Sequence record: PZ445414.1
DNA length: 49,911 nucleotides
Source: a phage
Direction: 5' to 3' (one strand)
Shown here: positions 6,059-49,378 of the stretch, piece after piece
Position numbering within the stretch: position 1 is the stretch's first letter
Layout: every line of letters starts with the position of its first letter
The notes under the pieces: model-generated
Seen by the model: only the letters and a program-made list of their open reading frames with translations
Told to the model about the DNA's origin: nothing
Database searches by the model: none
Position numbers and translations under genes: made by a program

Positions 6059-6077
6059 CATAAAAACCTATTGCACG

Positions 6078-6096
6078 TTTAACAAAAAGTGCTATC
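6078..6096 (-). promoter_or_regulatory. conserved box, inverted orientation, in leader of major capsid gene
   Basis: fwd tttaacaaaaagtgctat = reverse complement of ATAGCACTTTTTGTTAAA. Confidence 0.45.
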
Positions 6097-9725: not shown

Positions 9726-9731
9726 TCACAA

Positions 9732-9755
9732 GGGGCGTTGCGCCCCTTTTTTATT
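9732..9755 (+). terminator. intrinsic terminator after major tail gene
   Basis: ggggcg ttg cgcccc tttttt. Confidence 0.75.
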
Positions 9756-9800
9756 TGATGTAATATTACCCCAACATTTAACCACTAAGGAGAAACACCA

Positions 9801-13378: not shown

Positions 13379-13732
13379 TTGGCTAACCTGGAAATGTTTA
13401 AATGGTGTACCCAAACGCAGGGAGGCGGCGGGAGCATGACGACTGAGGACACCGTGAGGGAGGTTGTTTTTGGGAATGGCTACACGCAAGTTGCGTCGTC
13501 TGGTTTAAACACGACGAAAAGAAGCTTTAGCGTTATCTACGCTGGCGCTGATTACATGGATGTGATCAGCTTCATGCAAAGGCATCTTGTTAAACCTTTC
13601 GCGTGGATTGCGCCGGATGGAAAGGCTGGATTGTTCAGGGTTAAATCTGGAACCATCGCAGCCAAGCCAATCTCCCCAACCGTTCAGGAGGTAGCGGCGA
13701 CTTTCGTTGAGCAATTTACCAGCATGGAATAA
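13379..13732 (+). CDS. minor tail protein M (lambda gpM-like)
   Basis: N-terminus MFKW...VREVVFGNGYTQVASSGLNTTKRSFSVIY parallels lambda gpM; TTG 13379 or ATG 13394 start after AGGAGG. Confidence 0.75.
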   Translation: MANLEMFKWCTQTQGGGGSMTTEDTVREVVFGNGYTQVASSGLNTTKRSFSVIYAGADYMDVISFMQRHLVKPFAWIAPDGKAGLFRVKSGTIAAKPISPTVQEVAATFVEQFTSME

Positions 13733-13735
13733 TCA

Positions 13736-13762
13736 AAGCCGCCTTTGTGCGGCTTTTTTATT
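13736..13762 (+). terminator. intrinsic terminator after gpM-like gene
   Basis: aagccgc ctttgt gcggctt ttttatt. Confidence 0.7.
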
Positions 13763-13764
13763 GG

Positions 13765-13773
13765 TGCTACAAT
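13765..13773 (+). promoter_or_regulatory. extended -10 element TGcTACAAT immediately after terminator (internal late promoter candidate)
   Basis: tgctacaat; upstream of gpL-like gene. Confidence 0.4.
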
Positions 13774-13801
13774 ACGCAATTATCACAAAGGAGGTCTATC
13801 A

Positions 13802-14554
13802 ATGGCTACAGGCAAAGAAGAATTTGAGAACTGCTTACAGAGCCTTTACCCTGGCGAGATCATGACACTGGTAGAGGTTGACGGTACAAAGTTTGGCGCT
13901 GGCGTTTACCGATTCCATAATGAGAATGTGCAATACACGCCGGAGGAGATCATGAAAGCGGTTGAGAGCGGCACGCTACCGCCTAAGGAAATTATTTTCC
14001 AGGGCGAGGCATACGGTGCGCGGCCTTTCGGGATCACTGGTATCAGCTTTACAAGTGACGGCAAGGCCGGAAAGCCGGAGTTAACCCTGTCAAACATTGA
14101 CAGCCAGGTATCCGCACTTATCCGATCATTTAATGGGATGATGCAAGCAAAGGTCACAATATGGGTCACGTCAAAAGAAATGATTCAGAGTGACGGCAGC
14201 GTAAAAGACGGCGCTTATCGTAAACTGGTCTACTACGTCGAGCGGCCTAGCTACTGCAACAAGAGCATAGCACGCTTTGAGCTTACATCGCCGTATGATA
14301 TGGATGGCATAATGATCCCTCCGCGAATCACTCAAAGCGTTTGCTATTGGGCGCAGCGTGGATGGTACAGAAGCGGGAAAGGCTGCGGCTACAACGGATC
14401 GCGAATGTTCGATAAGGACAACAACCCTGTAACAGATCCGAGCCTTGACCAATGCGCGGGAACAGCAACGGCCTGTAAGTTGCGTTTTGGTGCGGATCAA
14501 GAGTTAGATTTTGGCGGCTGCGCCGTCGCATCACTTTTAAGGAGCTACCAATGA
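13802..14554 (+). CDS. minor tail protein L (lambda gpL-like)
   Basis: ATG 13802 after AAAGGAGG; conserved Cys cluster (CYW...C.GY.G...C...C) and LTLSNI motif as in gpL. Confidence 0.8.
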   Translation: MATGKEEFENCLQSLYPGEIMTLVEVDGTKFGAGVYRFHNENVQYTPEEIMKAVESGTLPPKEIIFQGEAYGARPFGITGISFTSDGKAGKPELTLSNIDSQVSALIRSFNGMMQAKVTIWVTSKEMIQSDGSVKDGAYRKLVYYVERPSYCNKSIARFELTSPYDMDGIMIPPRITQSVCYWAQRGWYRSGKGCGYNGSRMFDKDNNPVTDPSLDQCAGTATACKLRFGADQELDFGGCAVASLLRSYQ

Positions 14555-15267
14555 TTAGCGCAAAAATTAAACTGGAAATAATGCGCCACGCGCAGGACGT
14601 ATACCCCGCCGAGTGTTGCGGGGTTGTAACCCAAAAGTCACGCGTCCAGCGATATCACCGAATCAAGAACGTGCATGATGATCCAGAAAATCATTTCTTG
14701 ATGGACGCAGACGAATACGCAGAAATTGAGGGGGGAGATCACGAGATAATCGCCATTGCTCACAGTCACACTGGAGACGGCGCAACCACGTTACCGAGCG
14801 CACACGATACATGTATGTGTGATGAAATGGGCGTGACTTGGGTTATCGTATCGCTTCCAGAGGGTGATATGAGAATGATTGAACCTGCAACGCGTCCTCT
14901 GATTGGTCGCCCGTGGTCGCTAGGATCGTATGATTGCTGGGGCTTGATTATGGCGTGGCACAAAGAGCAAGGCGTGATCCTTAATGACTTCCGCAAGCCT
15001 TACGAGTGGTGGAAGCCTGAATATGGCGAAAATCTCTATCAGGAGAACTATCTGAAAGAGGGTTTCATTCCAACAGGTAAGGAGCCGGAGCATGGCGATA
15101 TGATCATAATGCAGCTTCAAGCGCCAGTATGGAACCATGCCGGAATCTACTTAGGTAACAATCAAATCCTGCATCATGCTTTCGGCAAGCTTTCAAGATC
15201 TGATATCTATTCTGGATGGTATCAGGAGCACACGGTAATGATTTGCAGACATAAGGAGCTAAAGTAA
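14551..15267 (+). CDS. tail assembly protein K (JAB/MPN + NlpC/P60 domains)
   Basis: JAMM motif AHSHTGDGATTLPSAHD (HxH..S..D), NlpC/P60-type DCWGL cysteine; ATGA overlap with L. Confidence 0.8.
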   Translation: MISAKIKLEIMRHAQDVYPAECCGVVTQKSRVQRYHRIKNVHDDPENHFLMDADEYAEIEGGDHEIIAIAHSHTGDGATTLPSAHDTCMCDEMGVTWVIVSLPEGDMRMIEPATRPLIGRPWSLGSYDCWGLIMAWHKEQGVILNDFRKPYEWWKPEYGENLYQENYLKEGFIPTGKEPEHGDMIIMQLQAPVWNHAGIYLGNNQILHHAFGKLSRSDIYSGWYQEHTVMICRHKELK

Positions 15268-15866
15268 TGCAGACACTAAAGAGAATTAAGCTTTCCGGCT
15301 CGCTGGGGCGGCGTTTCGGCGTTTTTCATGAGCTAGCCGTCGAATCATACCCCGAAGCAATTCGTGCGCTCTCCGTTTCGCTGGGTGGCTTTAAAGACTA
15401 TATGCAAAGTGAAGTTGGATCGCGTATGCACTACGCTGTTTTTGTTGATGGGAAAAATGTAGGTCAGTATGACGAAAAGGCGTGGAAGTGCGGCAAGGAA
15501 ATCCGAATCATTCCGATCCCGTCCGGCTCAAAATCTGGCGGATTGTTCCAGGTTGTTTTAGGCGCAGCAATCATGGCTACGGCGTTCTTTACTGGCGGTG
15601 CATCACTTGCCGCAATGGGCGCTCTATCCTCCTCAGCGTTCATGATGGGTGGCGCTATGGTTTTGGGCGGTGTTATGCAGATGATATCACCACAGCGCGG
15701 CGGAATGCAGATGGAGGTAAAGAGCACGGAAAATAAGCCGTCCTACGCGTTCGGAGGTGCTGTAAACACAACTGCGGCAGGTTATCCGCTACCGCTGCCA
15801 TACGGTTATCGAACCGTTGGCGGAGCTATCTGGAGTTCGGGAAGCTACGCAGAGGACAAAGTATAA
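15267..15866 (+). CDS. tail assembly protein I (lambda gpI-like)
   Basis: 199 aa, Gly/Ala-rich hydrophobic C-terminal half; ATG overlaps K stop; followed by terminator. Confidence 0.7.
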   Translation: MQTLKRIKLSGSLGRRFGVFHELAVESYPEAIRALSVSLGGFKDYMQSEVGSRMHYAVFVDGKNVGQYDEKAWKCGKEIRIIPIPSGSKSGGLFQVVLGAAIMATAFFTGGASLAAMGALSSSAFMMGGAMVLGGVMQMISPQRGGMQMEVKSTENKPSYAFGGAVNTTAAGYPLPLPYGYRTVGGAIWSSGSYAEDKV

Positions 15867-15872
15867 AATAAA

Positions 15873-15895
15873 CCCCGCATTGCGGGGTTTTTTAT
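15873..15895 (+). terminator. intrinsic terminator after gpI-like gene
   Basis: ccccgca ttgc ggggg-like stem ccccgc/gcgggg + ttttttatt. Confidence 0.75.
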
Positions 15896-15899
15896 TGGT

Positions 15900-15908
15900 T
15901 GCTATAAT
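15900..15908 (+). promoter_or_regulatory. extended -10 element TGCTATAAT immediately after terminator
   Basis: tgctataat; upstream of J. Confidence 0.45.
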
Positions 15909-15918
15909 GCAACCTCAA

Positions 15919-15938
15919 AACAGCACAAATTGTTAAAA
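15919..15938 (+). promoter_or_regulatory. box variant (AACAGCAC-N5-GTTAAAA) in leader of J gene
   Basis: aacagcacaaattgttaaaa downstream of TGCTATAAT. Confidence 0.4.
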
Positions 15939-15953
15939 CTGGAGGCCAAAATT

Positions 15954-18900
15954 ATGATAAGCGGCAATAAGGGCGGCTCCTCTAAGCCGTACAAGCCAAA
16001 GGAGATGGAGGACAACCTGATCTCCATCAACAAAATCAAAATCCTCCTGGCGGTTTCAGACGGAGAGGTAGACGGCGAGTTTTCGCTAAAAAATCTCTAC
16101 CTTGACGACGTGCCAGTGCAAAACGCAGACGGATCGCTTAACTATAGCGGTGTTAGTGCTGAGTTCCGGCCAGGCACTCAAACGCAGGACTACATCAAGG
16201 GATTTTCAGACACGTCAAGCGAAATCACGATTCAGCGAGATCTGGCGCAGAATAACCCTTACAGCATTGCGGTAACAAACAAATCACTATCTGCTATCAG
16301 GATCAAAATCCTGATGCCTCAGGGCTACAAGCAGGAGGATAACGGCGATCTTGTTGGTGTTTCTGTGCAGTACGCAGTTGATATGGCAGTTGATGGCGGT
16401 TCGTTTAAGCGCGTGCTAACTGATACAATCACTGGTAAAACGACTAGCGGCTACGACAGGAGCCAGCGCATTGACCTGCCAAACTTCAACGAGCAGGTGA
16501 TTTTGCGAGTTAGTCGAGTTACGGAGGATTCAACATCAAGCCGCCTTGTCGATAAAATTCGTTTGCAGAGCTATGCGGAGGTTGTTGATGCAAAATTCCG
16601 TTATCCTCTGACTGGTTTAGTTTACGTTGAGTTTGATAGCGAGCTTTTCCCTAACCAGCTACCAAACATTTCTATCAAGAAGAAATGGAAGCTGATAAAC
16701 GTTCCTGTTAACTACGATCCAGAATCACGCGAATACTCAGGAAGCTGGAACGGTCTGTTTAAAAAGGCTTGGAGCAACAACCCAGCTTGGGTTCTGTATG
16801 ACCTGATCACCAATCAGCGCTACGGGCTAGACCAAAGAGAGCTTGGGATTGAGATTGACAAGTGGAGCATCTACGAGGCAGCACAGTATTGCGATCAGAT
16901 GGTTCCAGATGGCAAAGGAGGACTAGAGCCTCGCTATCTGTGTGATGTTGTTATCCAGAGCCAGATTGAAGCGTTTAACCTGATCCGTGATATTTGCTCT
17001 ATCTTCCGTGGCATGAGCTTTTGGAACGGAGAGAGCCTTTCTATCGTGGTGGATAAACCGCGTGATCCGTCTTACATTTTCAGTAATGACAACGTGGTTA
17101 ACGGCGATTTCCAGTACACCTTTGCAAGCGAGAAAAGCATGTACACGCAGTGTAACGTGACTTTCGACGACGAGCAAAACATGTACAGCCAGGATATTGA
17201 GGGCGTTTTCGACACTGAGGCCGCTTTGCGCTTTGGTCACAATCCGACAAGCATCACAGCAATCGGATGCACACGACGCAGCGAGGCGAACCGCCGAGGG
17301 CGCTGGATTCTCAAGACCAACCTGCGCAGCACCACGGTAAACTTTGCAACTGGTCTTGAGGGCATGATCCCGACAATCGGAGATGTGATCGCAATCGCGG
17401 ATAACTTCTGGGCTAGCAACTTGACGCTTAATCTTTCTGGGCGCGTCATGGAGGTTTCAGGGCTGCAAGTTTTCCTCCCGTTCCGAGTTGATGCGAGGCC
17501 TGGTGATTTTATCCTGATCAACAAGCCGGACGGAAAGCCAGTTAAGCGCACTATTTCACGAGTTAGCGCAGACGGGAAAACTATTGAGTTAAACGTTGGC
17601 TTTGGTTTCGACGTTAAGCCGGACACGGTTTTCGCAATCGACAGGACTGATCTTGCGTTGCAGCAGTACGTTGTTACCGGAATAACCAGGGGCGACGATA
17701 CGGAGCAATTCACGTACTCAATAACGGCTGTCGAATACGATCCAAACAAGTACGACGAGATTGATTACGGAGTGAACATTGACGACAGGCCAACAAGCAT
17801 TGTAAACCCTGGCGTGATGAAAGCGCCTGAAAATGTGCAGGTGTCCTCTTACTCTCGCATTGTTCAGGGGCAGAGCGTAGAAACGATGGTTGTTAGCTGG
17901 GATAAAGTCGAATACGCAAGCTTGTACGAGGTGCAATGGAGAAAGGACAATAGCAACTGGCTAAACGTTCCTCAGACTGCAAACAAAGAGGTTAGCGTTG
18001 AGGGTATTTACTCAGGCAACTACTTTGTAAGGGTTCGATCAGTATCCGCGTCTGGAAGCACGTCGCCGTGGTCTAGTGTTGTTTCAGCCGCATTAACTGG
18101 CAAGGTTGGCGAGCCTAAAATGCCTATTAACTTGACCGCCTCAGATAATGAGATATTTGGGATCCGCGTCAAGTGGGGTATACCTGAGGGTGCTGGCGAT
18201 ACTGCTTACATAGAGCTACAGCAAGCGCCGGACGTAGACGGAATGGCTAGCGAAGAAAACGCAACACTGCTAACTCTCGTTCCGTATCCTCAAATGGAGT
18301 ATTGGCACGCAACGTTACCACCTGGATATATCAACTGGTATCGAGTGCGAAGTGTTGACAGGATCGGAAACGTTTCTGCGTGGACTGACTTTGTGCGCGG
18401 TATGTCGTCAACTAACGTTGATGATATTTTAGGCGACATTCTTGATGATATTTTAAACTCTGCTGGGTTTGAGGAGTTCAAAGAGAATGCCGTAGATACT
18501 GCAAACAAGGTTAAAGACCAGGCGCAAAGCGTGATCCAGAATGCGCTAGCTATTGATACCAATCTGCGTTGGAACCGAGTAGAAAACGGGAAGCGTAAAG
18601 CGGAGCACGGACAGGCGCTTGAGCTTATCGCAAACGAAACAGAGGCGCGAATTCAGGCGGTTGAGGTTCTGCGAACTGAGTTTGACGAGGGCATCTCCTC
18701 TAACATTACAGAAGTCAAGAAATTGATTTCTAACGAGGCGGAAACGCGAGCGAGCCAGGTTCAGCAGTTAGACGCTACATTCACGAAAAAAGTTTCTGAC
18801 GTGAATGGTAGGGTTGACGGTGTTTCTCAAGAGATCGTTAAGACAAACGCAAACGTGAGTAGCGCACAGCAAGCGATTGCAAACGAGACTGAGGCAAGGA

Positions 18901-19532
18901 CTCAAGCGGTTAGCTCTCTTGACTCCAAGTTTACAGGGCAGATTAATGGCGTTAAGCAGGATTTATCCTCAAACGTCACGAGGTTGGATCAGTCTATCGC
19001 TAACGAGACTCAAGCGAGAGCCAGTGCTGACACTGCGTTGTCAACTCGTGTTGGTAAAACGGAATCGGCAATTACTCAGAAGCTTGACTCTTGGGTAGAC
19101 AACGGATCTATAGGTGCTCAGTACGCTCTCAAGCTTGGGATTAAACGTGCTGGTGTTGAGTACACGGCTGGAGTTTCGCTATCGCTAATCCAGTCAGGTA
19201 GCGAGATAAAATCTCAATTCCTGGTTGATGCGGCGAGGTTCGGGGTAATGACTAGGCAGGGAGGGAGCTACACATTGCCGTTTGTAGTTGATAATGGAAC
19301 GGTTATCATGAATACGGCGCTAATTAAAAACGGCTCTATAACAAACGCAATGATTGGTAACGTGATTCAGTCAAATAATTATGTTGCTGGCAAGTCCGGT
19401 TGGAGGCTGGACAAAAACGGAAACCTTGAGATCAATGGCAGCGCCGGAAATGGCAGACTGACCATTAACAATAACATTATCGCGGTTTACGATGGTAATG
19501 GTGTCTTGAGGGTTCGAATGGGGTTGTTCTAA
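15954..19532 (+). CDS. tail tip / host specificity protein J
   Basis: 1192 aa from ATG 15954 (SD GGAGG); N-terminus MISGNKGGSSKPYKPKE... like lambda J; FN3-like segments; repeated IANETEAR motifs near C-terminus. Confidence 0.8.
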   Translation: MISGNKGGSSKPYKPKEMEDNLISINKIKILLAVSDGEVDGEFSLKNLYLDDVPVQNADGSLNYSGVSAEFRPGTQTQDYIKGFSDTSSEITIQRDLAQNNPYSIAVTNKSLSAIRIKILMPQGYKQEDNGDLVGVSVQYAVDMAVDGGSFKRVLTDTITGKTTSGYDRSQRIDLPNFNEQVILRVSRVTEDSTSSRLVDKIRLQSYAEVVDAKFRYPLTGLVYVEFDSELFPNQLPNISIKKKWKLINVPVNYDPESREYSGSWNGLFKKAWSNNPAWVLYDLITNQRYGLDQRELGIEIDKWSIYEAAQYCDQMVPDGKGGLEPRYLCDVVIQSQIEAFNLIRDICSIFRGMSFWNGESLSIVVDKPRDPSYIFSNDNVVNGDFQYTFASEKSMYTQCNVTFDDEQNMYSQDIEGVFDTEAALRFGHNPTSITAIGCTRRSEANRRGRWILKTNLRSTTVNFATGLEGMIPTIGDVIAIADNFWASNLTLNLSGRVMEVSGLQVFLPFRVDARPGDFILINKPDGKPVKRTISRVSADGKTIELNVGFGFDVKPDTVFAIDRTDLALQQYVVTGITRGDDTEQFTYSITAVEYDPNKYDEIDYGVNIDDRPTSIVNPGVMKAPENVQVSSYSRIVQGQSVETMVVSWDKVEYASLYEVQWRKDNSNWLNVPQTANKEVSVEGIYSGNYFVRVRSVSASGSTSPWSSVVSAALTGKVGEPKMPINLTASDNEIFGIRVKWGIPEGAGDTAYIELQQAPDVDGMASEENATLLTLVPYPQMEYWHATLPPGYINWYRVRSVDRIGNVSAWTDFVRGMSSTNVDDILGDILDDILNSAGFEEFKENAVDTANKVKDQAQSVIQNALAIDTNLRWNRVENGKRKAEHGQALELIANETEARIQAVEVLRTEFDEGISSNITEVKKLISNEAETRASQVQQLDATFTKKVSDVNGRVDGVSQEIVKTNANVSSAQQAIANETEARTQAVSSLDSKFTGQINGVKQDLSSNVTRLDQSIANETQARASADTALSTRVGKTESAITQKLDSWVDNGSIGAQYALKLGIKRAGVEYTAGVSLSLIQSGSEIKSQFLVDAARFGVMTRQGGSYTLPFVVDNGTVIMNTALIKNGSITNAMIGNVIQSNNYVAGKSGWRLDKNGNLEINGSAGNGRLTINNNIIAVYDGNGVLRVRMGLF

Positions 19533-19538
19533 CAGAAA

Positions 19539-19567
19539 AGGGAGCCTTGCGGCTCCCTCTTTTTTTA
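19539..19567. terminator. bidirectional terminator between J (+) and secreted-protein gene (-)
   Basis: gggagcc ttgc ggctccc tctttttttt; A-rich on the other side. Confidence 0.7.
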
Positions 19568-22546: not shown

Positions 22547-22876
22547 ATGCCTCCATCAAGTAAACAAAGAGAGGATATCAGAATGGAAAACATCACCAAT
22601 GAAGAAATGATTAGCGCGGCATGTGAAGCTCATATGCGTATTTTTGTACACCGCGTCACTTTCGCCATGAAGGACTTTGTTAAGCCGCTTAATCCGGCAG
22701 ACGGCGAAGAAGAAATGAAATACATCCGTGACGTTATGGAGGCGGTTGACAACGTTGTAGCCACTGCGCTGATGGTCAAAGATAATCCAGAGGCAATCAA
22801 GATGATGAAGGAATCCACCGACAGGCTGATCAATCAGCTTATCGAGATCCACAACGGCGGCGAAGTAAAACACTAA
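22547..22876 (+). CDS. hypothetical protein
   Basis: 109-aa ORF with SD GGAGGTG; between exonuclease and Erf. Confidence 0.45.
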   Translation: MPPSSKQREDIRMENITNEEMISAACEAHMRIFVHRVTFAMKDFVKPLNPADGEEEMKYIRDVMEAVDNVVATALMVKDNPEAIKMMKESTDRLINQLIEIHNGGEVKH

Positions 22877-24032: not shown

Positions 24033-24058
24033 AAGCCCCCAATTGGGGGCTTTTTTAT
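24033..24058. terminator. bidirectional terminator between ssb (+) and tail fibre (-)
   Basis: aaaag ccccc aatt ggggg cttttttatt. Confidence 0.8.
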
Positions 24059-26058
24059 TACTTGTTTTTCAGCATTACGATGTCAGCCTTTAACGCTTCA
24101 ATCTCTGCTTTCTGCGCATCAATTAGATCGCGCATTTCCTTGAATGCCTCAACATACAGCGCGGATAATGCGTTGTAGTCGAGCGTTAGCGGGTTTTCCA
24201 CCTTGTCACAATTCTTTGTAAGCACATTGTGATCTTTTCCCTCTGTGACGCTAACAGCCTCCGGTAGCACCTTCTGCACGTCCTGCGCGATCACGCCAGC
24301 ATTTCGAACGGTATTCTGAATCGTGGTGTGCATGGAGTATGTAACGCCGCGCAGGGAGCAAATCTTATCAAGCGCACCAGTTACGGGCTTGATCCAGAAT
24401 TTCGCTCGCTCGTCTGACGTTGCAGTGAATTTCACCGCCTTACATTCACCCGTTGCGCCGTAAATGCTGAGTGCTTGGCCACCCGCGCCAGTGCTAGCAT
24501 TATCAGATCGCAATTGCAACACTTGCGTATCGTTTGAGTAAATCACGGCACGGTTTCTGCCAGATCTGTTTTGCAGCCATACGTGAGTATTGTCACTTCC
24601 ATCACCTCCGCGAACGTATGCGCTAGAGCCGTCAACAAACAAATTGCCTTGGCAGTTTGTGTCACCTCCGTTAAGTCGAATGCGATCTGAGATCTGAATG
24701 CCTTTTTTGTGTACATAACTCCAAAGGCCAATGCTATCATCATTGTTAGATGGATTCCCCACCCATCCTGTGTTCTTGTTCAGATCGTTGAACATGATGT
24801 AATGCGAGTTTCCAGCAGTTCTAGGCCTGACAACAAACGAATCAGCATCCCATGACGTGTACAGCTTCGTCCTAAGGTTGATATCAGAGGTTTCAATGGT
24901 GAGGCGCCCACCATTAAACAGATATCCGCCAGCAATGTTTGCGCTCATATATCCAGCAGTAAACCTTAGGTTCCCGCCTCCGTTCGCATCTCTGTTCATT
25001 CCGTCGCAGTAAATTCGCGCGTCGTAGTCATACTTTCCGCTGTAGTGAAGATCAATGTAGGCCGTTGAGTTTTTTGTTCGGTAGCCTAACTCAAGCTGAT
25101 TAGCCTCCACCCCCATTGACGCAACAAGGTTAGGTACGCTGAAATCACCAGTAGGAGACAATGACGCGAACTGCGGAGAGTTTTGGTTGCTCCTGTTAAT
25201 GATTGAAATGTTCTGGTTGCGATCCGCCCTAAACTCTGCCTGTGACAATATTGTGCTTCCGCTCATTAGCTGAGCAGCGAATGCGGCGCTGGGGTTGTCA
25301 TTGTTTGCGTTTGAAGGAGTTCTGATCAGATATCCGTTAGCTGTGATCGCATTACCAAACTCAACCGTGCTACTCTTACCCAACCCCAAATTTTCTCTTG
25401 ATGTTGGCTTGTCAGCAACATCACTCAAGTTATTAGCTTTCTTCAACTGGTTATCAGGGTTTGCAGTTTGTGCGCGGTCTGCTTCCGATTTTGCGCGATC
25501 CGCTTGCTGCGTTGCCGTTGTAGCTGATGCCGCCGCAGCGCTCTTTGACGCGTTTGCGCTTGATGCGGCTGTCTGAGCCTCGTTCTTTGCTGTATTTGCC
25601 GCGCTTGCACTGCTTGCTGCGTTTGTTTCGCTTGATTTTGCAGACTTTGCGCTTGCGTCAGCAGCGGCGGCGTTTGCTTCCGTGTTTCGCTCAAGTTGCT
25701 CCAGCTTTTGCCAATCAAAGCTTTTCAGGAAGTCAACAAACTCCTGATACATTGTTTCCTGACCCTGGTAATAACGCAGAGTTTCGGCAACATCTTGCGC
25801 CAGGCCGTCAACCGTCAGAGAGTCATGAAGCAGGATCACATAGTCTCCGCGAGGCACTACCGCGCCGCCAGTAGACGTGGCACGCAGTGAGGTATCATTC
25901 ACGATCTCGCTAATGGTTGCGTATGCAACCGGATTGGATGCAAACACGATTGTTGCACCTGGACGAATCAGCGTTAATGCTGTTTTCCACTTTGTTCCGT
26001 AACCAGTGATATAGCCGTTAGCGTCCATTGACGCTTGACCAGTGCGATAAATAGCCAT
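24058..26058 (-). CDS. side tail fibre protein with C-terminal intramolecular-chaperone-like domain
   Basis: 666 aa from ATG 26058 (SD GGAGA); Ala/Ser-rich low-complexity region; C-terminal TSDERAKFWIKPV...LDYNALSALYVEAFKE resembles S74 autoproteolytic chaperone domain. Confidence 0.65.
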   Translation of the reverse strand: MAIYRTGQASMDANGYITGYGTKWKTALTLIRPGATIVFASNPVAYATISEIVNDTSLRATSTGGAVVPRGDYVILLHDSLTVDGLAQDVAETLRYYQGQETMYQEFVDFLKSFDWQKLEQLERNTEANAAAADASAKSAKSSETNAASSASAANTAKNEAQTAASSANASKSAAAASATTATQQADRAKSEADRAQTANPDNQLKKANNLSDVADKPTSRENLGLGKSSTVEFGNAITANGYLIRTPSNANNDNPSAAFAAQLMSGSTILSQAEFRADRNQNISIINRSNQNSPQFASLSPTGDFSVPNLVASMGVEANQLELGYRTKNSTAYIDLHYSGKYDYDARIYCDGMNRDANGGGNLRFTAGYMSANIAGGYLFNGGRLTIETSDINLRTKLYTSWDADSFVVRPRTAGNSHYIMFNDLNKNTGWVGNPSNNDDSIGLWSYVHKKGIQISDRIRLNGGDTNCQGNLFVDGSSAYVRGGDGSDNTHVWLQNRSGRNRAVIYSNDTQVLQLRSDNASTGAGGQALSIYGATGECKAVKFTATSDERAKFWIKPVTGALDKICSLRGVTYSMHTTIQNTVRNAGVIAQDVQKVLPEAVSVTEGKDHNVLTKNCDKVENPLTLDYNALSALYVEAFKEMRDLIDAQKAEIEALKADIVMLKNK

Positions 26059-26073
26059 ATGTAAAATCTCCCA

Positions 26074-26092
26074 AATAGCACGTTTTGTTAAT
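26074..26092 (+). promoter_or_regulatory. conserved box in leader of (minus-strand) tail fibre gene, inverted relative to gene
   Basis: aatagcacgttttgttaa between TGCTATAAT (minus) and tail-fibre SD. Confidence 0.45.
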
Positions 26093-26102
26093 GACAAGTC
26101 GG

Positions 26103-26111
26103 ATTATAGCA
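26103..26111 (-). promoter_or_regulatory. extended -10 element TGCTATAAT (minus) upstream of tail fibre gene
   Basis: fwd attatagca; follows primase terminator. Confidence 0.45.
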
Positions 26112-26124: not shown

Positions 26125-26147
26125 AAAAAAACCCCGCCGAAGCGGGG
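26125..26147 (-). terminator. intrinsic terminator after primase gene (minus)
   Basis: fwd aaaaaaa ccccgc cgaa gcgggg. Confidence 0.7.
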
Positions 26148-26162
26148 CAAGAAAGCAATGGT

Positions 26163-27119
26163 TTACCGTGTCGGGAGTAAAGTCTCAGGCTTGTAAAGCT
26201 TTCGCTCTATCCCTTGCCGGAAATTATCGTTAACAGGAAGCATTACGTCAAGTCCTCTCTCCTCAGCGGCAATTATCACGTCCTGATCGGTTGACTTGCA
26301 CACCACGCGCATTTTTCGATCTCCTTTATACCGATGCGCAACAATCTCAACGTTATAACTTGAGAAGCAAGCCCACACCTCCTGGCCTGTAGATAGGTGA
26401 ATGTGTTGAGCATCAACCCAATCAACGCACAGATAGATCGTGTTGTCAGTTTTACCAGTCACCGCAACGGAGCCTCGCGTATAGTCCTTTGCATAGAAAC
26501 TTTTCTCGCCTAGCTCGTCAATCATGAGGATGTTACACATTTCATCATCTAAACCATCGTCATGCACAAGGTAGCAAGGGATTGCATGAATAAGCGATTC
26601 TCCGCCATTCTCCAGCGATTTTACGCCTACAGAGTACATTTCATCATCTGGCGGAGCGATGCCCTCAAAAACGCTTAGGGGCGTTTTTAGCACGCCTTTG
26701 GTTCTCTCCATTACTGCAACGCAGTTTTCATGTGGAGCCTGGGATCCAAAAGAGTAACCTGATGCGCGGGAGGCTCGCTTGTTCGCCTTAACTATATACT
26801 CCTGAGGAACCTTTCCGAGAAAGCGCCCTAAGATGTTGATGCACTCGCTATATGATTCGCCAGTGAGCTTCATTAGCCAGCCAATACCGCTATCGTTCCC
26901 ACAACCGTTGCACACTGCGCCGCCGTCTCCGTCAGTGCTAAGTTTGTCAGTCCAGCGGAATCTGTCTTTACCTCCGCAGTGGGGGCAAGGTTGGTGTTTC
27001 TTGTTGAAAACGTCATTGCTCAATCCGCAAAGGCTTTGTAGCGCATCGCGCCACATGCCTTTCATGTACGGCAAAACGTCCTCTTTCTGAAAAATCATGT
27101 TTGGGTGTACTTCTTGCAT
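26163..27119 (-). CDS. DNA primase (zinc-ribbon type, putative)
   Basis: CPHCGG ... CNGCG zinc-ribbon motif near N-terminus; ATG 27119 after GGAGCGAG; adjacent to helicase gene. Confidence 0.5.
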   Translation of the reverse strand: MQEVHPNMIFQKEDVLPYMKGMWRDALQSLCGLSNDVFNKKHQPCPHCGGKDRFRWTDKLSTDGDGGAVCNGCGNDSGIGWLMKLTGESYSECINILGRFLGKVPQEYIVKANKRASRASGYSFGSQAPHENCVAVMERTKGVLKTPLSVFEGIAPPDDEMYSVGVKSLENGGESLIHAIPCYLVHDDGLDDEMCNILMIDELGEKSFYAKDYTRGSVAVTGKTDNTIYLCVDWVDAQHIHLSTGQEVWACFSSYNVEIVAHRYKGDRKMRVVCKSTDQDVIIAAEERGLDVMLPVNDNFRQGIERKLYKPETLLPTR

Positions 27120-27177: not shown

Positions 27178-27618
27178 TTAGCTATTTGTGCTGTTTATGA
27201 AGTCCGACTCTTTCACTACGCGCAGCATTTCGTATCGGTCGCATTTCGTCGTTAACGCTTTGCCGTTTGAGTCAAATCTCAGATCTGGACGGCAGAATGA
27301 AGCGCGATAGCCCTTGCAGCCGTTTCGCTTATAGTCGGCGTGAACCTTTTCGGCTCCAGAAACGGAAATCATTCCGCGCTTGCGCCACTGCTGGATAACC
27401 TGGTGAGTAACCTTTAAGCGCCTTGTCATTTCTGCCTGAGATCCGTAATATTCGCAAACGGCATCCAGACGAGCACGCAATCCGGCTTTGACTTCATCCT
27501 TTAGAACGTAGTAGCCTGTTTTGCGCTTGCGCTTTTTCTTGTCTTTACCGCGCTTTACACCGTTGTTGCCATTGATTGTGCGCTTGTCAATTTCGCCAGT
27601 TGATGCAGCAATTTTCAT
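27178..27618 (-). CDS. HTH DNA-binding protein (Cro/YdaS-like, putative regulator)
   Basis: 146 aa from ATG 27618 (SD GGAGG); basic N-terminus; HTH-like SQAEMTRRLKVTHQVIQQWRKRGMIS. Confidence 0.45.
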   Translation of the reverse strand: MKIAASTGEIDKRTINGNNGVKRGKDKKKRKRKTGYYVLKDEVKAGLRARLDAVCEYYGSQAEMTRRLKVTHQVIQQWRKRGMISVSGAEKVHADYKRNGCKGYRASFCRPDLRFDSNGKALTTKCDRYEMLRVVKESDFINSTNS

Positions 27619-27629: not shown

Positions 27630-27649
27630 GATAGCACTTTTTGCTAAAA
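27630..27649 (+). promoter_or_regulatory. conserved box upstream of helicase gene
   Basis: gatagcactttttgctaaaa; TATTAT at 27669-27674. Confidence 0.5.
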
Positions 27650-29709: not shown

Positions 29710-30126
29710 ATGGTTACTGACAAAGGCGATTATCTGGAATATTACGAGAGGGATCCGAGCGATACGCGCAAGGAAGATTCTCACCAGGTTGATTGTGTGG
29801 CGTGGTTGCGCCACCACTACCCACACTTGCTCTTTTGGCACACTGTAAACGAGGGGAGCAAGACAATCACCGCCGCGCTGCGTGACGAACAGGCCGGATT
29901 GCTAAAGGGCGTATCAGACTTTGTTATCCTGATTGGTTCTGGTAAATACCCGTTTGCAGCCATAGAGCTAAAGCAAGCCAACAAATCAGGCAAGCGCAAG
30001 GCTTCACCAGTCAGCGACAACCAGAAAGCTTTCTTGAGCAGGGTTAGACACTTGGGAGGTTTCGCAGCCGTTTGCTATGGCGTGAAGCAATTCAAGCTTG
30101 CAATTGCAGATCTCTTGCAGGAATAG
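29710..30126 (+). CDS. VRR-NUC domain nuclease
   Basis: 138 aa; motif DFVILIGSGKYPFAAIELKQ (D..E.K) typical of VRR-NUC; start ATG right after helicase stop. Confidence 0.6.
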   Translation: MVTDKGDYLEYYERDPSDTRKEDSHQVDCVAWLRHHYPHLLFWHTVNEGSKTITAALRDEQAGLLKGVSDFVILIGSGKYPFAAIELKQANKSGKRKASPVSDNQKAFLSRVRHLGGFAAVCYGVKQFKLAIADLLQE

Positions 30127-30141
30127 CACTTTTTGCTAAAA
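30122..30141 (+). promoter_or_regulatory. conserved box + hairpin + CATAAT upstream of lipoprotein gene
   Basis: aatagcactttttgctaaaa; inverted repeat ggcgca/tgcgcc; overlaps VRR-NUC stop TAG. Confidence 0.55.
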
Positions 30142-31583: not shown

Positions 31584-31602
31584 ATAGCACTTTTTGTTAA
31601 AA
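31583..31602 (+). promoter_or_regulatory. conserved box + hairpin + CATAAT
   Basis: aatagcactttttgttaaaa; hairpin gcccg...cgggc. Confidence 0.55.
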
Positions 31603-31659
31603 ATGCCCGGCGAAAGTCGGGCATAATTATTTCCAACGAAAACCACTGAGGAAAACGAA

Positions 31660-36820: not shown

Positions 36821-36876
36821 CTTAAAGTCTCCTTGTTGGTTGACCTGTATTATAGGTCAACCATCTTACAGCCTTT

Positions 36877-36896
36877 TGGCAATTCGTGCTATTTTA
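36877..36896 (-). promoter_or_regulatory. conserved box upstream of P-loop ATPase gene
   Basis: minus AAAATAGCACGAATTGCCAA; TATAAT inside hairpin GGTTGACC/GGTCAACC. Confidence 0.5.
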
Positions 36897-37134
36897 AACG
36901 TTCAACTTTTGCGAGAAGTTTCGATCCGTCATGGCTCCAGCATTCGAGCGTCTCAGGATCAAAGTCTAAAGACCTGTGGAATGTGTGACCAATCAGCAGA
37001 TATCCGCCGCGCTGACGAATCTGATAAACCGTTTCGCCAACCGTGAATATTGAAATGTCGCTGTATGTCACCTTGAATCTGTTAGCCAGCATACTCTTTG
37101 GTATGTGGCGAGTGTATTCTACGCCTTGAATCAT
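36889..37134 (-). CDS. hypothetical protein
   Basis: 81 aa; ATGA coupling with upstream ORF. Confidence 0.4.
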   Translation of the reverse strand: MIQGVEYTRHIPKSMLANRFKVTYSDISIFTVGETVYQIRQRGGYLLIGHTFHRSLDFDPETLECWSHDGSKLLAKVERLK

Positions 37135-39067: not shown

Positions 39068-39087
39068 TTTTAACAAAAAGTGCTGTC
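39068..39087 (-). promoter_or_regulatory. box variant (minus)
   Basis: minus GACAGCACTTTTTGTTAAAA; hairpin with TGgTATAGT downstream. Confidence 0.45.
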
Positions 39088-40191: not shown

Positions 40192-40247
40192 TTCGTTTTC
40201 CTCATTTCGTTTCGATGAATGCATTATGCCAAATCCAGATCACGTAG

Positions 40248-41608: not shown

Positions 41609-41628
41609 AATAGCACTTTTTGTTAAAA
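41609..41628 (+). promoter_or_regulatory. conserved box + hairpin + ATAATA
   Basis: aatagcactttttgttaaaa; hairpin gcccc...ggggc. Confidence 0.55.
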
Positions 41629-41686
41629 CTGCCCCGCGCGAGTGGGGCATAATAGCCTCAACGAAACGAATTGAGGAGATTGCAAA

Positions 41687-42830: not shown

Positions 42831-42891
42831 CACCAGATCGGGGTTGCGCTATAGTAACCCCATCGAAACGAAACACACTGAGGAGCACAAA

Positions 42892-44265: not shown

Positions 44266-44475
44266 GTGATTCTTACAGTAGCTTTTGCCAATCCGCGAGC
44301 GTGCAACATCTTTGGATTCAGGGAGAGGATGCGCATTGAGGCCGAGCGCAACGATAAAGGCATCCTTTACGTCAAATCGCCAAAAACTGGCGTTGCAATG
44401 ATGGTCAAGGAGAATGGAGGCCGGATGTTCATTCGCTCAATGTCAGGCCAGGATCTGGTGACTTTCACAAAATAG
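44266..44475 (+). CDS. hypothetical protein
   Basis: 69 aa; GTG start after GAGG; stop TAG embedded in next box. Confidence 0.35.
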   Translation: MILTVAFANPRACNIFGFRERMRIEAERNDKGILYVKSPKTGVAMMVKENGGRMFIRSMSGQDLVTFTK

Positions 44476-44490
44476 CACGAATTGCTAAAA
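44471..44490 (+). promoter_or_regulatory. conserved box; TATAAT at 44510-44515
   Basis: aatagcacgaattgctaaaa; overlaps upstream stop TAG. Confidence 0.55.
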
Positions 44491-46848: not shown

Positions 46849-47318
46849 AATATTATGTGCGTCCTACTGTAGATGGTGAAAACTTTACTGCTGGCAAACT
46901 CTACGAGATCCAGCATTGCTTTGGAACTGGTCGCGTTATCGTGCTCAACGATGCAAAAGAGGAAACCATTGTGCGTTGCGATGGAATTGTGTCGGCTCGC
47001 CTGGACTGGCGCGGAAAGTTTGATCGCGTGAACATTCCAGGCGCTCAAGAAGCTATGGAGTCGGCGCAATCCGCTGCGGAGTATATGCTGAAAGTTGGGA
47101 TTGGTCGCCATGGCGGCTGGCAGCACAGCAAGATCGGGCAGGTGACTATCAGCGACGGGCAAATCTACGCAAGTGCATCGCCTCGCAACGAGTACGTCGA
47201 AGTGCTGGAACAGTTACGCGAAATTCTGCGCGTGCCGGAGGGTGAGAATATCCTGACTCATGCGAAAGTTGTGCGCGTGCTGGCTGATGGGTTAATCAAC
47301 CTCCAGAAAACGAAATAG
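46845..47318 (+). CDS. hypothetical protein
   Basis: 157 aa from ATG 46845. Confidence 0.45.
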   Translation: MKYYVRPTVDGENFTAGKLYEIQHCFGTGRVIVLNDAKEETIVRCDGIVSARLDWRGKFDRVNIPGAQEAMESAQSAAEYMLKVGIGRHGGWQHSKIGQVTISDGQIYASASPRNEYVEVLEQLREILRVPEGENILTHAKVVRVLADGLINLQKTK

Positions 47319-47333
47319 CACTTTTTGCTAAAA
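47314..47333 (+). promoter_or_regulatory. conserved box; TGgTATAGT in hairpin loop
   Basis: aatagcactttttgctaaaa. Confidence 0.55.
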
Positions 47334-47389
47334 CTCAGATGGGGTAGGCTGGTATAGTTACCCCATCGAAACGAAACGGAGACACCAAA

Positions 47390-49311: not shown

Positions 49312-49337
49312 AAGCCCCGCGTTTGCGGGGTTTTTTT
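49312..49337 (+). terminator. intrinsic terminator before terminase small subunit gene
   Basis: ccccgc gttt gcgggg ttttttt. Confidence 0.8.
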
Positions 49338-49378
49338 GTGCCTGTTATAATTGGCCTCCAACAAGAGGAGGATTAACC

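What the first reader, a model, noticed from the sequence alone, without database searches (positions are those of the whole stretch)
13756..15938. Terminator-promoter tandems with extended -10 elements inside the late operon
Seen in sequence: after terminators at 13736-13762 and 15873-15895 the sequence continues TTATTGG-TGCTACAAT and TTATTGGT-TGCTATAAT (extended -10, TGn-TAnAAT); the same TGCTATAAT lies upstream of the tail fibre gene on the minus strand (26103-26111). No -35 is available because the terminator occupies that position. Inference: internal late promoters that boost distal tail gene expression, possibly activator dependent.
Basis: seen in the sequence. Interest (0 to 1): 0.35.

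Follow-up and report, generated by a model that had tools for sequence, protein, structure and literature searches.

The report
Promoters built into phage transcription terminators
In this T1-like coliphage, several strong transcription stop signals in the tail-gene cluster are each followed by a host-type promoter that partly overlaps them; the layout is conserved across the phage family, was sketched for phage T1 in 2004, and has never been tested experimentally.

Summary
The window is Escherichia phage IsaakIselin (Bas10, Drexlerviridae), rotated by 533 bp. TGCTAYAAT occurs three times only, each time just after a canonical intrinsic terminator and upstream of a co-oriented late gene (L-like minor tail gene, J, lateral fibre). 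I found two more such composites, before terS (49312-49351) and after the major tail gene (9730-9766).

About 60 relatives, including T1, keep a terminator followed by a TAnAAT hexamer at the homologous junctions.

A TTG in the terminator loop lies exactly 17 bp upstream of the -10 hexamer. At I|J, seven different combinations of stem, T-run and linker length all sum to 17 (permutation p about 1e-4). The canonical TGn is specific to some lineages at these sites. It is family-wide at terS (64 of 68) and common at the fibre gene (9 of 11), where there is indeed no -35.

These are most likely autonomous sigma70 promoters that restart transcription after each terminator. Nothing in the sequence calls for an activator. 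This matches the "transcripton" layout proposed for T1.

No transcript mapping exists, so promoter activity, timing and strength remain inferred. Interest is moderate.

The parts
13735..13762 (+). Intrinsic terminator after the M-like minor tail gene (stop codon 13730-13732): hairpin AAAGCCGC/GCGGCTTT with loop CTTTGT, then T6-A-TT.
   Evidence: (-11.9 kcal/mol, z -3.5). The homologous T1 site is annotated as a terminator, 22793-22816.
13745..13750 (+). -35-like hexamer TTGTGC in the loop and 3' arm of the terminator, 17 bp upstream of the -10 hexamer.
   Evidence: TTG lies at 17 bp in 29 of 42 distinct M|L sequences.
13765..13773 (+). Extended -10 element TGCTACAAT (TG 13765-13766, hexamer 13768-13773). 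Predicted start about 13778-13780, SD AAGGAGG 13788-13794, L-like gene ATG 13802.
   Evidence: The hexamer is conserved as TACAAT, TATAAT or TAGAAT in relatives.
15870..15895 (+). Intrinsic terminator after tail assembly gene I (stop codon 15864-15866): hairpin AAACCCCGC-ATT-GCGGGGTTT, then T6-A-TT.
   Evidence: (-14.3 kcal/mol). Homologues: T1 terminator 24972-24994 and TLS T49.
15880..15885 (+). -35-like hexamer TTGCGG in the loop and 3' arm of the terminator, 17 bp upstream of the -10 hexamer.
   Evidence: TTG lies at 17 bp in 36 of 38 distinct I|J sequences. Seven length decompositions all sum to 17. The alignment has no gaps between TTG and the -10.
15900..15908 (+). Extended -10 element TGCTATAAT (hexamer 15903-15908). 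Predicted start about 15912-15917, J ATG 15954.
   Evidence: TATAAT or TACAAT in 37 of 38 distinct relatives. TA.AAT columns are invariant in the alignment.
15918..15938 (+). Copy of the family-wide 21-nt direct repeat (AAACAGCACAAATTGTTAAAA), lying in the predicted 5' leader of the J transcript, about +5 to +25.
   Evidence: It corresponds to DR8 of phage TLS, placed just after T49. AGCA..AA..G..AAA is invariant across 19 relatives.
26125..26148 (-). Intrinsic terminator after the DNA primase gene (stop codon 26165-26163): hairpin GCCCCGC-TTCG-GCGGGG, then T7.
   Evidence: (-15.1 kcal/mol).
26103..26111 (-). Extended -10 element TGCTATAAT upstream of the lateral tail fibre gene (ATG 26058), 16 nt after the T-run. 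There is no TTG at the -35 position.
   Evidence: TGn is present in 9 of 11 distinct relatives, with a 16-nt linker.
26073..26093 (+). Direct-repeat copy (AAATAGCACGTTTTGTTAATG) reading antisense to the fibre gene. It lies in the fibre leader between the -10 and the SD.
   Evidence: Conserved as CATTAACAAAACGTGCTATTTAGGAG in relatives.
49312..49351 (+). Fourth composite, at the head of the late operon: terminator hairpin 49312-49333 plus T7, TTGCGG 49323-49328, 17-bp spacer, TGTTATAAT 49343-49351. terS ATG is at 49379.
   Evidence: (-15.6 kcal/mol). 68 distinct relatives have a terminator followed by TGnTATAAT, TATACT or TAAAAT.
9730..9766 (+). Fifth composite, after the major tail protein gene: hairpin 9730-9748 plus T6, TTGCGC 9738-9743, 17-bp spacer, TAATAT 9761-9766. 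The tape-measure chaperone ATG is at 9801.
   Evidence: -13.4 kcal/mol; score 6. TTG lies at 17 bp in 42 of 46 distinct relatives, with TAAAAT, TAATAT, TAGAAT or TACAAT as the hexamer.

Best explanation
Each tandem is a compact composite of a rho-independent terminator and a host sigma70 promoter that share DNA. The terminator ends the upstream transcript. The promoter starts a new transcript about 20 nt further on, just ahead of the ribosome-binding site of the next gene.

The composites come in two layouts.
- Compact layout (tandems 1 and 2, plus the composites at 9730 and 49312). The -35 contact is a TTG in the terminator loop. The 17-bp spacer consists of the 3' stem arm, the T-tract and a short linker. 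The -10 is TAnAAT, reinforced in this phage by TGn.
- Extended layout (tandem 3 here, and terS in most relatives). The terminator lies about 15-16 nt further upstream, there is no -35, and a TGn extended -10 carries the promoter alone.

The late region is thereby cut into units: terS to major tail gene V, then G to M, then L-K-I, then J, and the fibre gene separately. Distal, low-copy tail genes stay expressed despite the upstream terminators, and each unit's level can be set independently.

Shown: the motifs, their placement, hairpin stability, conservation and the spacing constraint. Inferred: promoter activity, recognition by unmodified sigma70 holoenzyme, start sites, terminator efficiency and timing.
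For: - Identity and context: the window is IsaakIselin, and the tandems sit at gene junctions on the coding strand of the downstream gene.
- Terminators: canonical hairpins plus U-tracts. T1 and TLS annotate terminators at the homologous sites.
- Non-random placement: 4 of 19 strong terminators carry a high-scoring promoter, against 0.07 expected.
- Conservation of the -10: found at M|L, I|J and V|G in 42, 38 and 46 distinct sequences. The pattern matches the known sigma70 profile (own knowledge), with the third hexamer position free (T49, A33, C23, G21), position 1 T in 123 of 126 and position 5 A in 125 of 126. Flanking linker and leader bases vary.
- Spacing: TTG lies exactly 17 bp upstream in 29 of 42, 36 of 38 and 42 of 46 sequences.
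- Length compensation at I|J: the splits (3,8,6), (4,6,7), (2,6,9), (3,6,8), (3,7,7), (3,9,5) and (2,5,10) all sum to 17, permutation p about 1e-4. The stem register shifts between clades while the TTG stays fixed relative to the -10.
- Second layout: TGn in 64 of 68 at terS and 9 of 11 at the fibre gene.
Against: - No transcript 5' or 3' end mapping, reporter assay or in vitro transcription exists for any Drexlerviridae in the searched literature.
- The -35 match is only 3 of 6 (TTGTGC, TTGCGG). The tool's own promoter scan did not list these sites and found no overall promoter enrichment.
- TTG also occurs in loops of terminators that lack any -10, for example 19539. Its presence alone is therefore weak evidence; the case rests on the spacing.
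- The spacing test is not significant at M|L (p 0.49). One clade there has TTG at 15 bp, and one relative (L011) has lost the promoter.
- A careful 2024 re-annotation of TLS listed no promoter at the homologous sites.
- Sequences within a site are related by descent, so counts of sequences overstate the number of independent events.
- Hexamers were chosen with A at position 2 and T at position 6 required, so those two positions are conserved by construction.
Confidence: 0.75

Rival explanations
1. These are -35-less extended -10 late promoters that depend on a phage-encoded or host activator, or on a modified RNA polymerase, and so fire only late.
For: - Tandem 3 and most terS promoters in the family do lack a -35 and rely on TGn.
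- The genes served are late structural genes.
- The phage encodes a small protein annotated as a putative transcriptional regulator, with sub-threshold Cro/YdaS-like helix-turn-helix hits.
- Copies of the conserved repeat lie in the leaders of J and the fibre gene and could bind a regulator.
Against: - TGnTATAAT promoters are active with sigma70 holoenzyme alone (established knowledge of extended -10 promoters; not tested here).
- Tandems 1 and 2 also have TTG at 17 bp.
- No conserved element lies upstream of these promoters other than the terminator itself.
- The family's upstream repeat is found at a fixed 19 nt before the -10 of other, mostly early-region, promoters, not before these.
- No RNA polymerase or sigma gene is known in the family (PMC11447400).
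Confidence: 0.12
2. The TAnAAT hexamers are not promoters. They are conserved as part of the terminator tail, as an RNA processing site in read-through transcripts, or as a shared boundary sequence that promotes recombination between modules.
For: - The hexamers are A/T-rich and directly follow U-tracts, which are often followed by A/T-rich sequence.
- In this phage the two internal sites share about 20 nt (TTTTTTATTGGT(T)GCTAYAAT), which could reflect gene conversion between cassettes.
- In T1 the M|L and I|J terminators are nearly identical.
Against: - Five other strong late-region terminators in this phage (1599, 5302, 7110, 7433, 10432) run straight into an SD with no such hexamer, so termination does not require it.
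- Conservation is confined to the positions sigma70 reads, with the third hexamer position free, while the linker varies. Recombination would need long identical stretches instead.
- The constant 17-bp distance to a loop TTG, kept by compensating indels, has no rationale under these models.
- Each hexamer sits 22-45 nt upstream of a start codon, leaving room for a leader with an SD.
Confidence: 0.07
3. A refinement of the best explanation, not an alternative. The overlap is functional coupling. RNA polymerase that has released its RNA at the T-tract stays on the DNA, already within the promoter, and is recaptured by sigma70 to reinitiate. The composite thus cuts the transcript without losing polymerase flux.
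For: - In single-molecule work, E. coli RNA polymerase usually remains on DNA after intrinsic termination, diffuses, and reinitiates at nearby promoters. Efficiency was 37-55% and is expected to depend on terminator-promoter distance (PMC6978380).
- Here that distance is zero, because the release site lies in the promoter spacer.
- The arrangement recurs at five sites and across the family.
Against: - Recycling has not been observed in vivo (PMC6978380).
- Simple economy of intergenic space in a compact phage genome explains the overlap equally well.
- In the extended layout the promoter lies about 15-16 nt further away, which shows that overlap with the hairpin is not required.
- Nothing in the sequence distinguishes reinitiation from de novo binding.
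Confidence: 0.15

Closest known systems
Phage T1 late-region 'transcriptons' (Roberts, Martin and Kropinski 2004, as summarised in PMC11447400)
   Same: The family, gene order and junctions are the same. T1 has terminators after the major tail gene, the M-like gene and the I-like gene, each followed by TTGCRC-N17-TAAAAT, TAGAAT or TATAAT. [quoted passage not shown]
   Different: I could not read the 2004 paper. I therefore cannot say whether it noted that the -35 lies in the terminator loop or that the spacing is fixed. The 2024 TLS re-annotation listed no promoters at these junctions and said it could not confirm transcriptons. IsaakIselin adds a canonical TGn at the M|L and I|J sites.
Extended -10 (TGn) sigma70 promoters of E. 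coli
   Same: TG sits one base upstream of a near-consensus -10 hexamer at 13765, 15900, 26111 (minus strand) and 49343. The fibre site has no -35, as in classical extended -10 promoters (own knowledge).
   Different: At the internal sites a TTG at 17 bp is also present and is the better conserved feature. TGn is absent from most relatives at those sites.
Lambda late operon (single promoter PR' with Q antitermination; own knowledge)
   Same: The tail gene order is homologous (V, G/T, H, M, L, K, I, J). Both have a long co-directional late operon transcribed by host RNA polymerase.
   Different: Lambda reads through its terminators with one antiterminated transcript and has no internal terminator-promoter pairs at M|L or I|J. 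This phage has nine terminators in about 20 kb and restarts after at least three of them. No antiterminator was identified or looked for here.
T7 class II terminators that act as TGn sigma70 promoters (Bao and Forster, bioRxiv 10.64898/2026.02.12.705533)
   Same: One short DNA segment carries both terminator and extended -10 promoter activity for E. coli RNA polymerase.
   Different: Those are hairpin-less class II signals for T7 RNA polymerase, and the promoter activity was found by accident. Here the terminators are class I hairpins for the host enzyme, and the arrangement is conserved by selection across a phage family.
Post-termination RNA polymerase recycling and reinitiation (Kang et al. 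2020, PMC6978380)
   Same: It supplies a mechanism by which a promoter next to an intrinsic terminator could capture the terminating polymerase.
   Different: It was shown only in vitro on artificial templates. No evidence here links the phage composites to it.

Membership tests
Intrinsic (rho-independent) terminator | GC-rich RNA hairpin immediately followed by a U-tract | tested here: met
   Hairpins fold at -11.9, -14.3 and -15.1 kcal/mol, followed by U6-U7, with z-scores of -2.8 to -3.5. The pattern scan also lists them.
Intrinsic (rho-independent) terminator | Located at the 3' end of a co-oriented gene | tested here: met
   The hairpins start 3-15 nt after the stop codons of the M-like gene, gene I and the primase gene.
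Intrinsic (rho-independent) terminator | Transcript 3' ends at the U-tract, with measurable termination efficiency | not testable with these tools
   Needs Term-seq or in vitro termination assays.
Extended -10 (TGn) sigma70 promoter | TG at -15/-14, one base upstream of the -10 hexamer | tested here: met
   TGCTACAAT, TGCTATAAT, TGCTATAAT and TGTTATAAT. Among relatives TGn occurs in 17 of 42 (M|L), 6 of 38 (I|J), 9 of 11 (fibre) and 64 of 68 (terS) sequences.
Extended -10 (TGn) sigma70 promoter | -10 hexamer close to TATAAT, with A at -11 and T at -7 | tested here: met
   5 of 6, 6 of 6 and 6 of 6 matches. Conserved in relatives. A at -11 and T at -7 were required when hexamers were picked, so only the other four positions are informative.
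Extended -10 (TGn) sigma70 promoter | Activity independent of a -35 element and of activators | not testable with these tools
   Needs in vitro transcription or reporter assays with mutants.
Canonical -35/-10 sigma70 promoter | -35-like hexamer 17 +/- 1 bp upstream of the -10 | tested here: met
   TTGTGC and TTGCGG lie at exactly 17 bp in tandems 1 and 2. This is not met in tandem 3, where the position reads TTTTTT. The spacing is conserved in relatives.
Canonical -35/-10 sigma70 promoter | At least 4 of 6 matches to TTGACA in the -35 hexamer (the usual scanning criterion) | tested here: not met
   Only the TTG matches (3 of 6). For this reason the scans and the strict TLS criteria miss these sites.
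T1-type transcripton boundary | A terminator-promoter pair at the homologous gene junction in T1 and other Drexlerviridae | tested here: met
   T1 positions 18770, 22793 and 24972 are followed by TTGCRC-N17-TAnAAT. About 58 IMG/VR relatives show the same.
T1/TLS 21-nt direct repeat (aaATAGCACnnnTTGnTAAAA) | Match to the published consensus | tested here: met
   15922-15938 matches the 17-nt core with no mismatch. The window has 24 copies with up to 2 mismatches, against 2.05 expected. The consensus is from PMC11447400.

The most novel reading that the evidence does not exclude
The composites may be dedicated terminate-and-reinitiate modules. Because the RNA release site lies inside the promoter spacer, the terminating polymerase would be recaptured by sigma70 and restart about 20 nt downstream. 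The phage could then chop a 20-kb late transcript into separate mRNAs, each with a protective 3' hairpin and a fresh 5' end, without losing polymerase flux. That would be the first natural, selected use of the post-termination recycling stage, so far seen only in vitro. A related possibility is that the repeat copies in the J and fibre leaders are operators that time these promoters.
Probability: 0.15. Interest if true: 0.7.

Novelty: new member of a known kind. Interest (0 to 1): 0.38.

Why it matters
T1-like phages are among the commonest coliphages, are used in therapy collections and contaminate laboratories, yet their transcription programme has never been mapped. If these composites work as inferred, the late region is a chain of short self-starting units and not one operon. 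That would change how gene dosage, engineering insertion sites and polar effects should be thought about in this family.

The comparative result also explains why strict promoter searches find almost no promoters in these genomes. The -35 is reduced to a TTG hidden in the terminator loop.

The compact design is a natural example of terminator and promoter sharing DNA. It could be useful as a small insulating part, and it gives a test case for polymerase recycling.

Tried and rejected
- The built-in promoter scan found no enrichment (18 found against 21.9 expected in 1-20 kb). It did not list the sites because it requires 4 of 6 matches in the -35, so it was uninformative here.
- Motif counts alone are weak: TGCTAYAAT 3 against 0.85 expected, TGNTANAAT 11 against 7, TTG-N20-TANAAT 4 against 2.3. 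Only placement relative to terminators and conservation carry weight.
- My first terminator/-10 association test used too loose a -10 definition (shuffle hit rates 0.1-0.3) and crashed. I replaced it with a stricter composite score.
- I searched for experimental start-site or transcriptome data on Drexlerviridae and found none. The one paper with transcriptomics studied a T5-like phage.
- The T1 (2004) and Rtp (2006) genome papers are not held.
- No public record annotates a promoter at the I|J junction.
- Rfam and tRNA scans of the whole window were empty.
- I considered the 21-nt repeat as a -35 element. Its TTGnTA lies 22 bp from the -10, too far for sigma70, so it is not a canonical -35.
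- I considered the repeat at 15922-15938 as a second promoter for J. The only -10-like hexamer after it overlaps the J start codon, so I rejected this.
- Pfam on the annotated regulator gave only sub-threshold helix-turn-helix hits.
- I looked for a promoter upstream of the repeat copy in the major capsid gene leader and saw none.
Full report
**Identity and context.** The window is the complete genome of Escherichia phage IsaakIselin (Bas10, MZ501077.1; Drexlerviridae, Tempevirinae, Henuseptimavirus). It is rotated so that window position equals record position minus 533. By the record's annotation:
- tandem 1 lies between an M-like minor tail gene (window 13436-13732) and an L-like minor tail gene (13802-14554);
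- tandem 2 lies between tail assembly protein I (15267-15866) and the J-like tail tip gene (15954-19532);
- the third element lies on the minus strand between the DNA primase gene (26163-27119) and the lateral tail fibre gene (24058-26058).

**The observation.**
- Tandem 1: AAAGCCGCCTTTGTGCGGCTTTTTT-ATTGG-TGCTACAAT.
- Tandem 2: AAACCCCGCATTGCGGGGTTTTTT-ATTGGT-TGCTATAAT.
- Minus strand: GCCCCGCTTCGGCGGGGTTTTTTT-ATGCCTTGCGCAA-TGCTATAAT.

The hairpins are canonical intrinsic terminators. They fold at -11.9, -14.3 and -15.1 kcal/mol, are followed by U6-U7, and score well below shuffled sequence.

TGCTAYAAT occurs three times only, against 0.85 expected, but 5 of 100 shuffles do as well. The broader patterns TGNTANAAT and TTG-N20-TANAAT are also not enriched genome-wide. 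Placement carries the signal. I collected 19 strong hairpin-plus-T-run sites on both strands. Four of them carry a composite promoter score of 7 or more within 24 nt, against 0.07 expected when the downstream 24 nt are shuffled. The score adds -10 matches, TGn, and TTG at 16-18 bp.

**Two further composites.**
- Upstream of terS, at the head of the late operon: hairpin 49312-49333, T7, then TGTTATAAT at 49343-49351.
- After the major tail protein gene: hairpin 9730-9748, T6, then TAATAT at 9761-9766.

Five other strong late-region terminators (1599, 5302, 7110, 7433, 10432) run straight into a ribosome-binding site with no -10-like hexamer.

**A -35 is available.** In tandems 1 and 2, and in both extra composites, a TTG lies exactly 17 bp upstream of the -10 hexamer: TTGTGC 13745-13750, TTGCGG 15880-15885, TTGCGG 49323-49328, TTGCGC 9738-9743. 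It sits in the loop and first bases of the 3' arm of the terminator hairpin. The 17-bp spacer is made of the rest of the arm, the T-tract and a short linker. Only the fibre element lacks it, because its terminator lies 16 nt further upstream and the -35 position falls in the T-tract.

**Comparative evidence.** I retrieved 58 IMG/VR contigs encoding a relative of the K-like tail protein. All but one distant contig (29% identity) share 60-99% identity with it. I also retrieved the whole T1 genome, from a different subfamily, and extracted three junctions: M|L, I|J and V|G (major tail gene | tape-measure chaperone).
- Distinct sequences analysed: 42 at M|L, 38 at I|J and 46 at V|G. All 126 have a terminator followed by a TAnAAT-type hexamer. 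Eight further junction sequences, most of them from diverged or rearranged contigs, were skipped by my script because it found no terminator hairpin.
- The four informative hexamer positions behave as a sigma70 -10 element should (own knowledge of the sigma70 consensus). Position 1 is T in 123 of 126. Position 3 is free (T49, A33, C23, G21). Position 4 is A in 112 and T in 14. Position 5 is A in 125 of 126. Positions 2 and 6 were required to be A and T when the hexamers were chosen, so they are uninformative.
- In a MAFFT alignment of 19 diverse I|J regions the invariant columns are the TTG, part of the stem, the T-run, TA.AAT and part of a downstream repeat. The linker before the -10 and the first 13-16 nt after it vary freely. 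No sequence has a gap between the TTG and the -10.

**The spacing constraint.** The TTG lies exactly 17 bp from the hexamer in 29 of 42 (M|L), 36 of 38 (I|J) and 42 of 46 (V|G) distinct sequences. At I|J this is not simply an absence of indels. The spacer splits into 3'-arm remainder, T-run and linker as (3,8,6), (4,6,7), (2,6,9), (3,6,8), (3,7,7), (3,9,5) and (2,5,10), always summing to 17. Shuffling the three components among the nine unique decompositions reaches seven sums of 17 with p about 1e-4. The same test gives p = 0.03 at V|G and is not significant at M|L, where there are few variants.

The distance from stem end to -10 varies (13-15 nt) and the stem register shifts between clades. 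The TTG stays fixed relative to the -10. The constraint is therefore on the TTG and not on the hairpin.

Exceptions:
- Two contigs (L026, L034) deviate in T-run length at the M|L and I|J junctions, and L034 also at V|G. These look like homopolymer sequencing errors.
- One clade has TTG at 15 bp at M|L.
- One relative (L011) has lost both a good T-tract and the promoter at M|L.

A caveat applies. TTG also occurs in loops of terminators without any -10, for example at 19539. Its presence alone proves little.

**The extended -10.** Many relatives have TG directly abutting the hexamer instead (cTGTAnAAT).

TGn is the conserved feature at two other sites.
- Upstream of terS, 68 distinct sequences (terS identity down to 44%) have a terminator, T7, a linker of about 15 nt, then TGnTATAAT, TATACT or TAAAAT. 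TGn is present in 64 of 68, and 58 of the 68 have no TTG at the -35 position.
- Upstream of the fibre gene, 9 of 11 have TGn after a 16-nt linker.

So there are two layouts. The compact one has the -35 in the loop. The extended one has no -35 and depends on TGn. The IsaakIselin clade shortened the terS linker to 8-10 nt, which brings the loop TTG to 17 bp. At M|L and I|J this phage has both TTG and TGn.

The shared stretch TTTTTTATTGGT(T)GCTAYAAT at its two internal sites is peculiar to this clade at I|J. It may reflect copying between the two cassettes; this is inference.

**Mechanism.** The best-supported reading is that these are autonomous sigma70 promoters physically overlapping intrinsic terminators. 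Each terminator closes one transcription unit, and the promoter opens the next about 20 nt downstream, leaving a 22-45 nt leader with a ribosome-binding site. The late region then reads as follows:
- promoter before terS;
- four promoter-less terminators through the head genes;
- terminator plus promoter after the major tail gene;
- a terminator before the tape-measure gene;
- terminator plus promoter after M;
- terminator plus promoter after I;
- a terminator after J.

The fibre gene has its own terminator-promoter pair after the primase gene. Promoter and terminator strengths are unknown, so it remains an inference.

Nothing in the sequence calls for an activator. The elements are near consensus, and no conserved sequence lies upstream other than the terminator.

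**Literature.**
[quoted passage not shown] Its authors could not confirm this for TLS with strict criteria (PMC11447400).
- Their supplementary table lists terminators T42, T46 and T49, the homologues of V|G, M|L and I|J, but no promoter there.
- The T1 RefSeq record annotates the terminators but no promoters. T1 nevertheless has TTGCRC-N17-TAAAAT, TAGAAT or TATAAT at all three junctions.
- No public record annotates a promoter at I|J.
- I found no transcript mapping for any member of the family.

The kind of arrangement is therefore already in the literature for T1. The loop-embedded -35, the fixed 17-bp spacing and the two layouts are not mentioned in what I could read.

Two recent papers give context.
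- E. coli RNA polymerase often stays on DNA after intrinsic termination and reinitiates at nearby promoters in vitro (PMC6978380).
- T7 class II terminators turned out to be TGn sigma70 promoters (bioRxiv 10.64898/2026.02.12.705533).

Either paper makes a natural, conserved terminator-promoter overlap somewhat more interesting. Nothing here shows coupling.

**Rivals.** Activator dependence cannot be excluded without experiments, and temporal control of these late genes is unexplained. The sequence does not ask for it. Non-promoter readings (terminator tail, processing site, recombination boundary) do not explain three things: conservation restricted to the positions sigma70 reads, the fixed distance to the loop TTG, and the absence of the hexamer at five other terminators.

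**Seen along the way.** The published 21-nt direct repeat aaATAGCACnnnTTGnTAAAA occurs 24 times in the window with up to 2 mismatches, against 2 expected.
- In 14 of 19 good copies here, and 12 of 16 in T1, a -10-like hexamer starts exactly 19 nt after the repeat. The repeat would then span about -48 to -32 of a second promoter class, found mostly in the early regions.
- The 19-nt gap usually holds a GC-rich hairpin, or the -10 sits in a hairpin loop. T1 annotates some of these hairpins as terminators. Terminator-promoter overlap therefore seems to be a general habit of these genomes.
- One copy lies inside the finding, at 15918-15938, but downstream of the tandem 2 promoter, in the J leader. 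It is conserved across the family.
- Reverse-oriented copies lie in the fibre leader (26073-26093) and the major capsid gene leader (6077-6093).

The function of the repeat is unknown. An operator role in timing the late promoters is possible but untested.

**Verdict.** The elements are real and conserved. They are most likely autonomous sigma70 promoters fused to terminators, not -35-less activator-dependent promoters. This is a new member of an arrangement already proposed for T1, with some new anatomical detail. Interest is moderate.

Noticed in passing
window, about 19 copies, e.g. 27633-27649(+), 30125-30141(+), 31586-31602(+), 36874-36890(-), 39068-39084(-), 41612-41628(+), 44474-44490(+), 47317-47333(+); also L036 (T1): The published 21-nt repeat (core AGCACnnnTTGnTAAAA) is followed at exactly 19 nt by a -10-like hexamer (TATAAT, CATAAT, TATAGT, TATTAT) in 14 of 19 copies here and 12 of 16 in T1. 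It therefore looks like the fixed upstream element (about -48 to -32) of a second promoter class found mostly in the early regions. Its TTGnTA is 22 bp from the -10, too far to act as a normal -35. The TLS paper left the repeat's function open.
   Followed up: partly
window, e.g. 36891-36925(-), 47334-47365(+), 42831-42862(+), 31603-31624(+), 41629-41650(+): The 19 nt between that repeat and its -10 hexamer usually contain a GC-rich inverted repeat. In some copies the inverted repeat brackets the -10 so that the hexamer sits in the loop, e.g. GGTTGACC-tataatac-AGGTCAACC. T1 annotates some of these hairpins as terminators, with the -10 inside the U-rich tail. The purpose is unexplained.
   Followed up: no
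window 15918-15938(+), 26073-26093 (antisense to the fibre gene), 6077-6093(-): Copies of the same repeat lie downstream of predicted late promoters, in the leaders of J (forward), the lateral fibre gene (reverse) and the major capsid gene (reverse; no obvious promoter upstream). The J and fibre copies are conserved in relatives. T1 also has copies after its terS and V|G promoters. They may be regulator binding sites that time late expression.
   Followed up: partly
relatives L003-L009, L021-L028, L036 and others, in the V|G intergenic region; absent from the window (9767-9800): Many relatives carry an extra 25-35 nt in the leader of the tape-measure chaperone gene. It includes a perfect hairpin, CACTTTT-AACA-AAAAGTG, which is a reverse copy of the repeat, directly before the SD. 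IsaakIselin, TLS and some others have a short version without it.
   Followed up: no
window, leaders after the repeat-associated promoters, e.g. 47366-47385(+), 42863-42880(+), 41651-41670(+), 40195-40215(-): A conserved leader motif, (C)ATCGAAACGAAA or CAACGAAACGAATTGAGGA, follows many of the repeat-associated promoters and runs into the SD. Repeat, hairpin, -10 and leader thus form a recurring cassette of about 75 nt between small early genes. From memory, this resembles the promoter-stem-loop cassettes described in T4-type phages.
   Followed up: no
window 27178-27618(-): The gene annotated as a putative transcriptional regulator (bas10_0033, homologue of T1 gp23) gives only sub-threshold Pfam hits to the YdaS/Cro-type helix-turn-helix (E 2.7e-4 and 8e-3, below the curated cut-offs). 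It is a candidate binder of the 21-nt repeat.
   Followed up: partly
L026 and L034 (IMG/VR contigs), M|L, I|J and V|G junctions: These two contigs deviate from all relatives in terminator T-run length: L026 has two extra T at M|L and I|J, and L034 is up to four T shorter at all three junctions. This breaks the 17-bp spacing. The likely cause is homopolymer sequencing error and not biology.
   Followed up: no
window 15954 versus relatives (alignment A2, columns 100-118): In most relatives an in-frame ATG five codons upstream of the position aligned with the IsaakIselin J start, preceded by AAGG from the repeat, looks like the real J start. The IsaakIselin clade replaced that stretch with a GGAGG SD and starts at the downstream ATG.
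   Followed up: no
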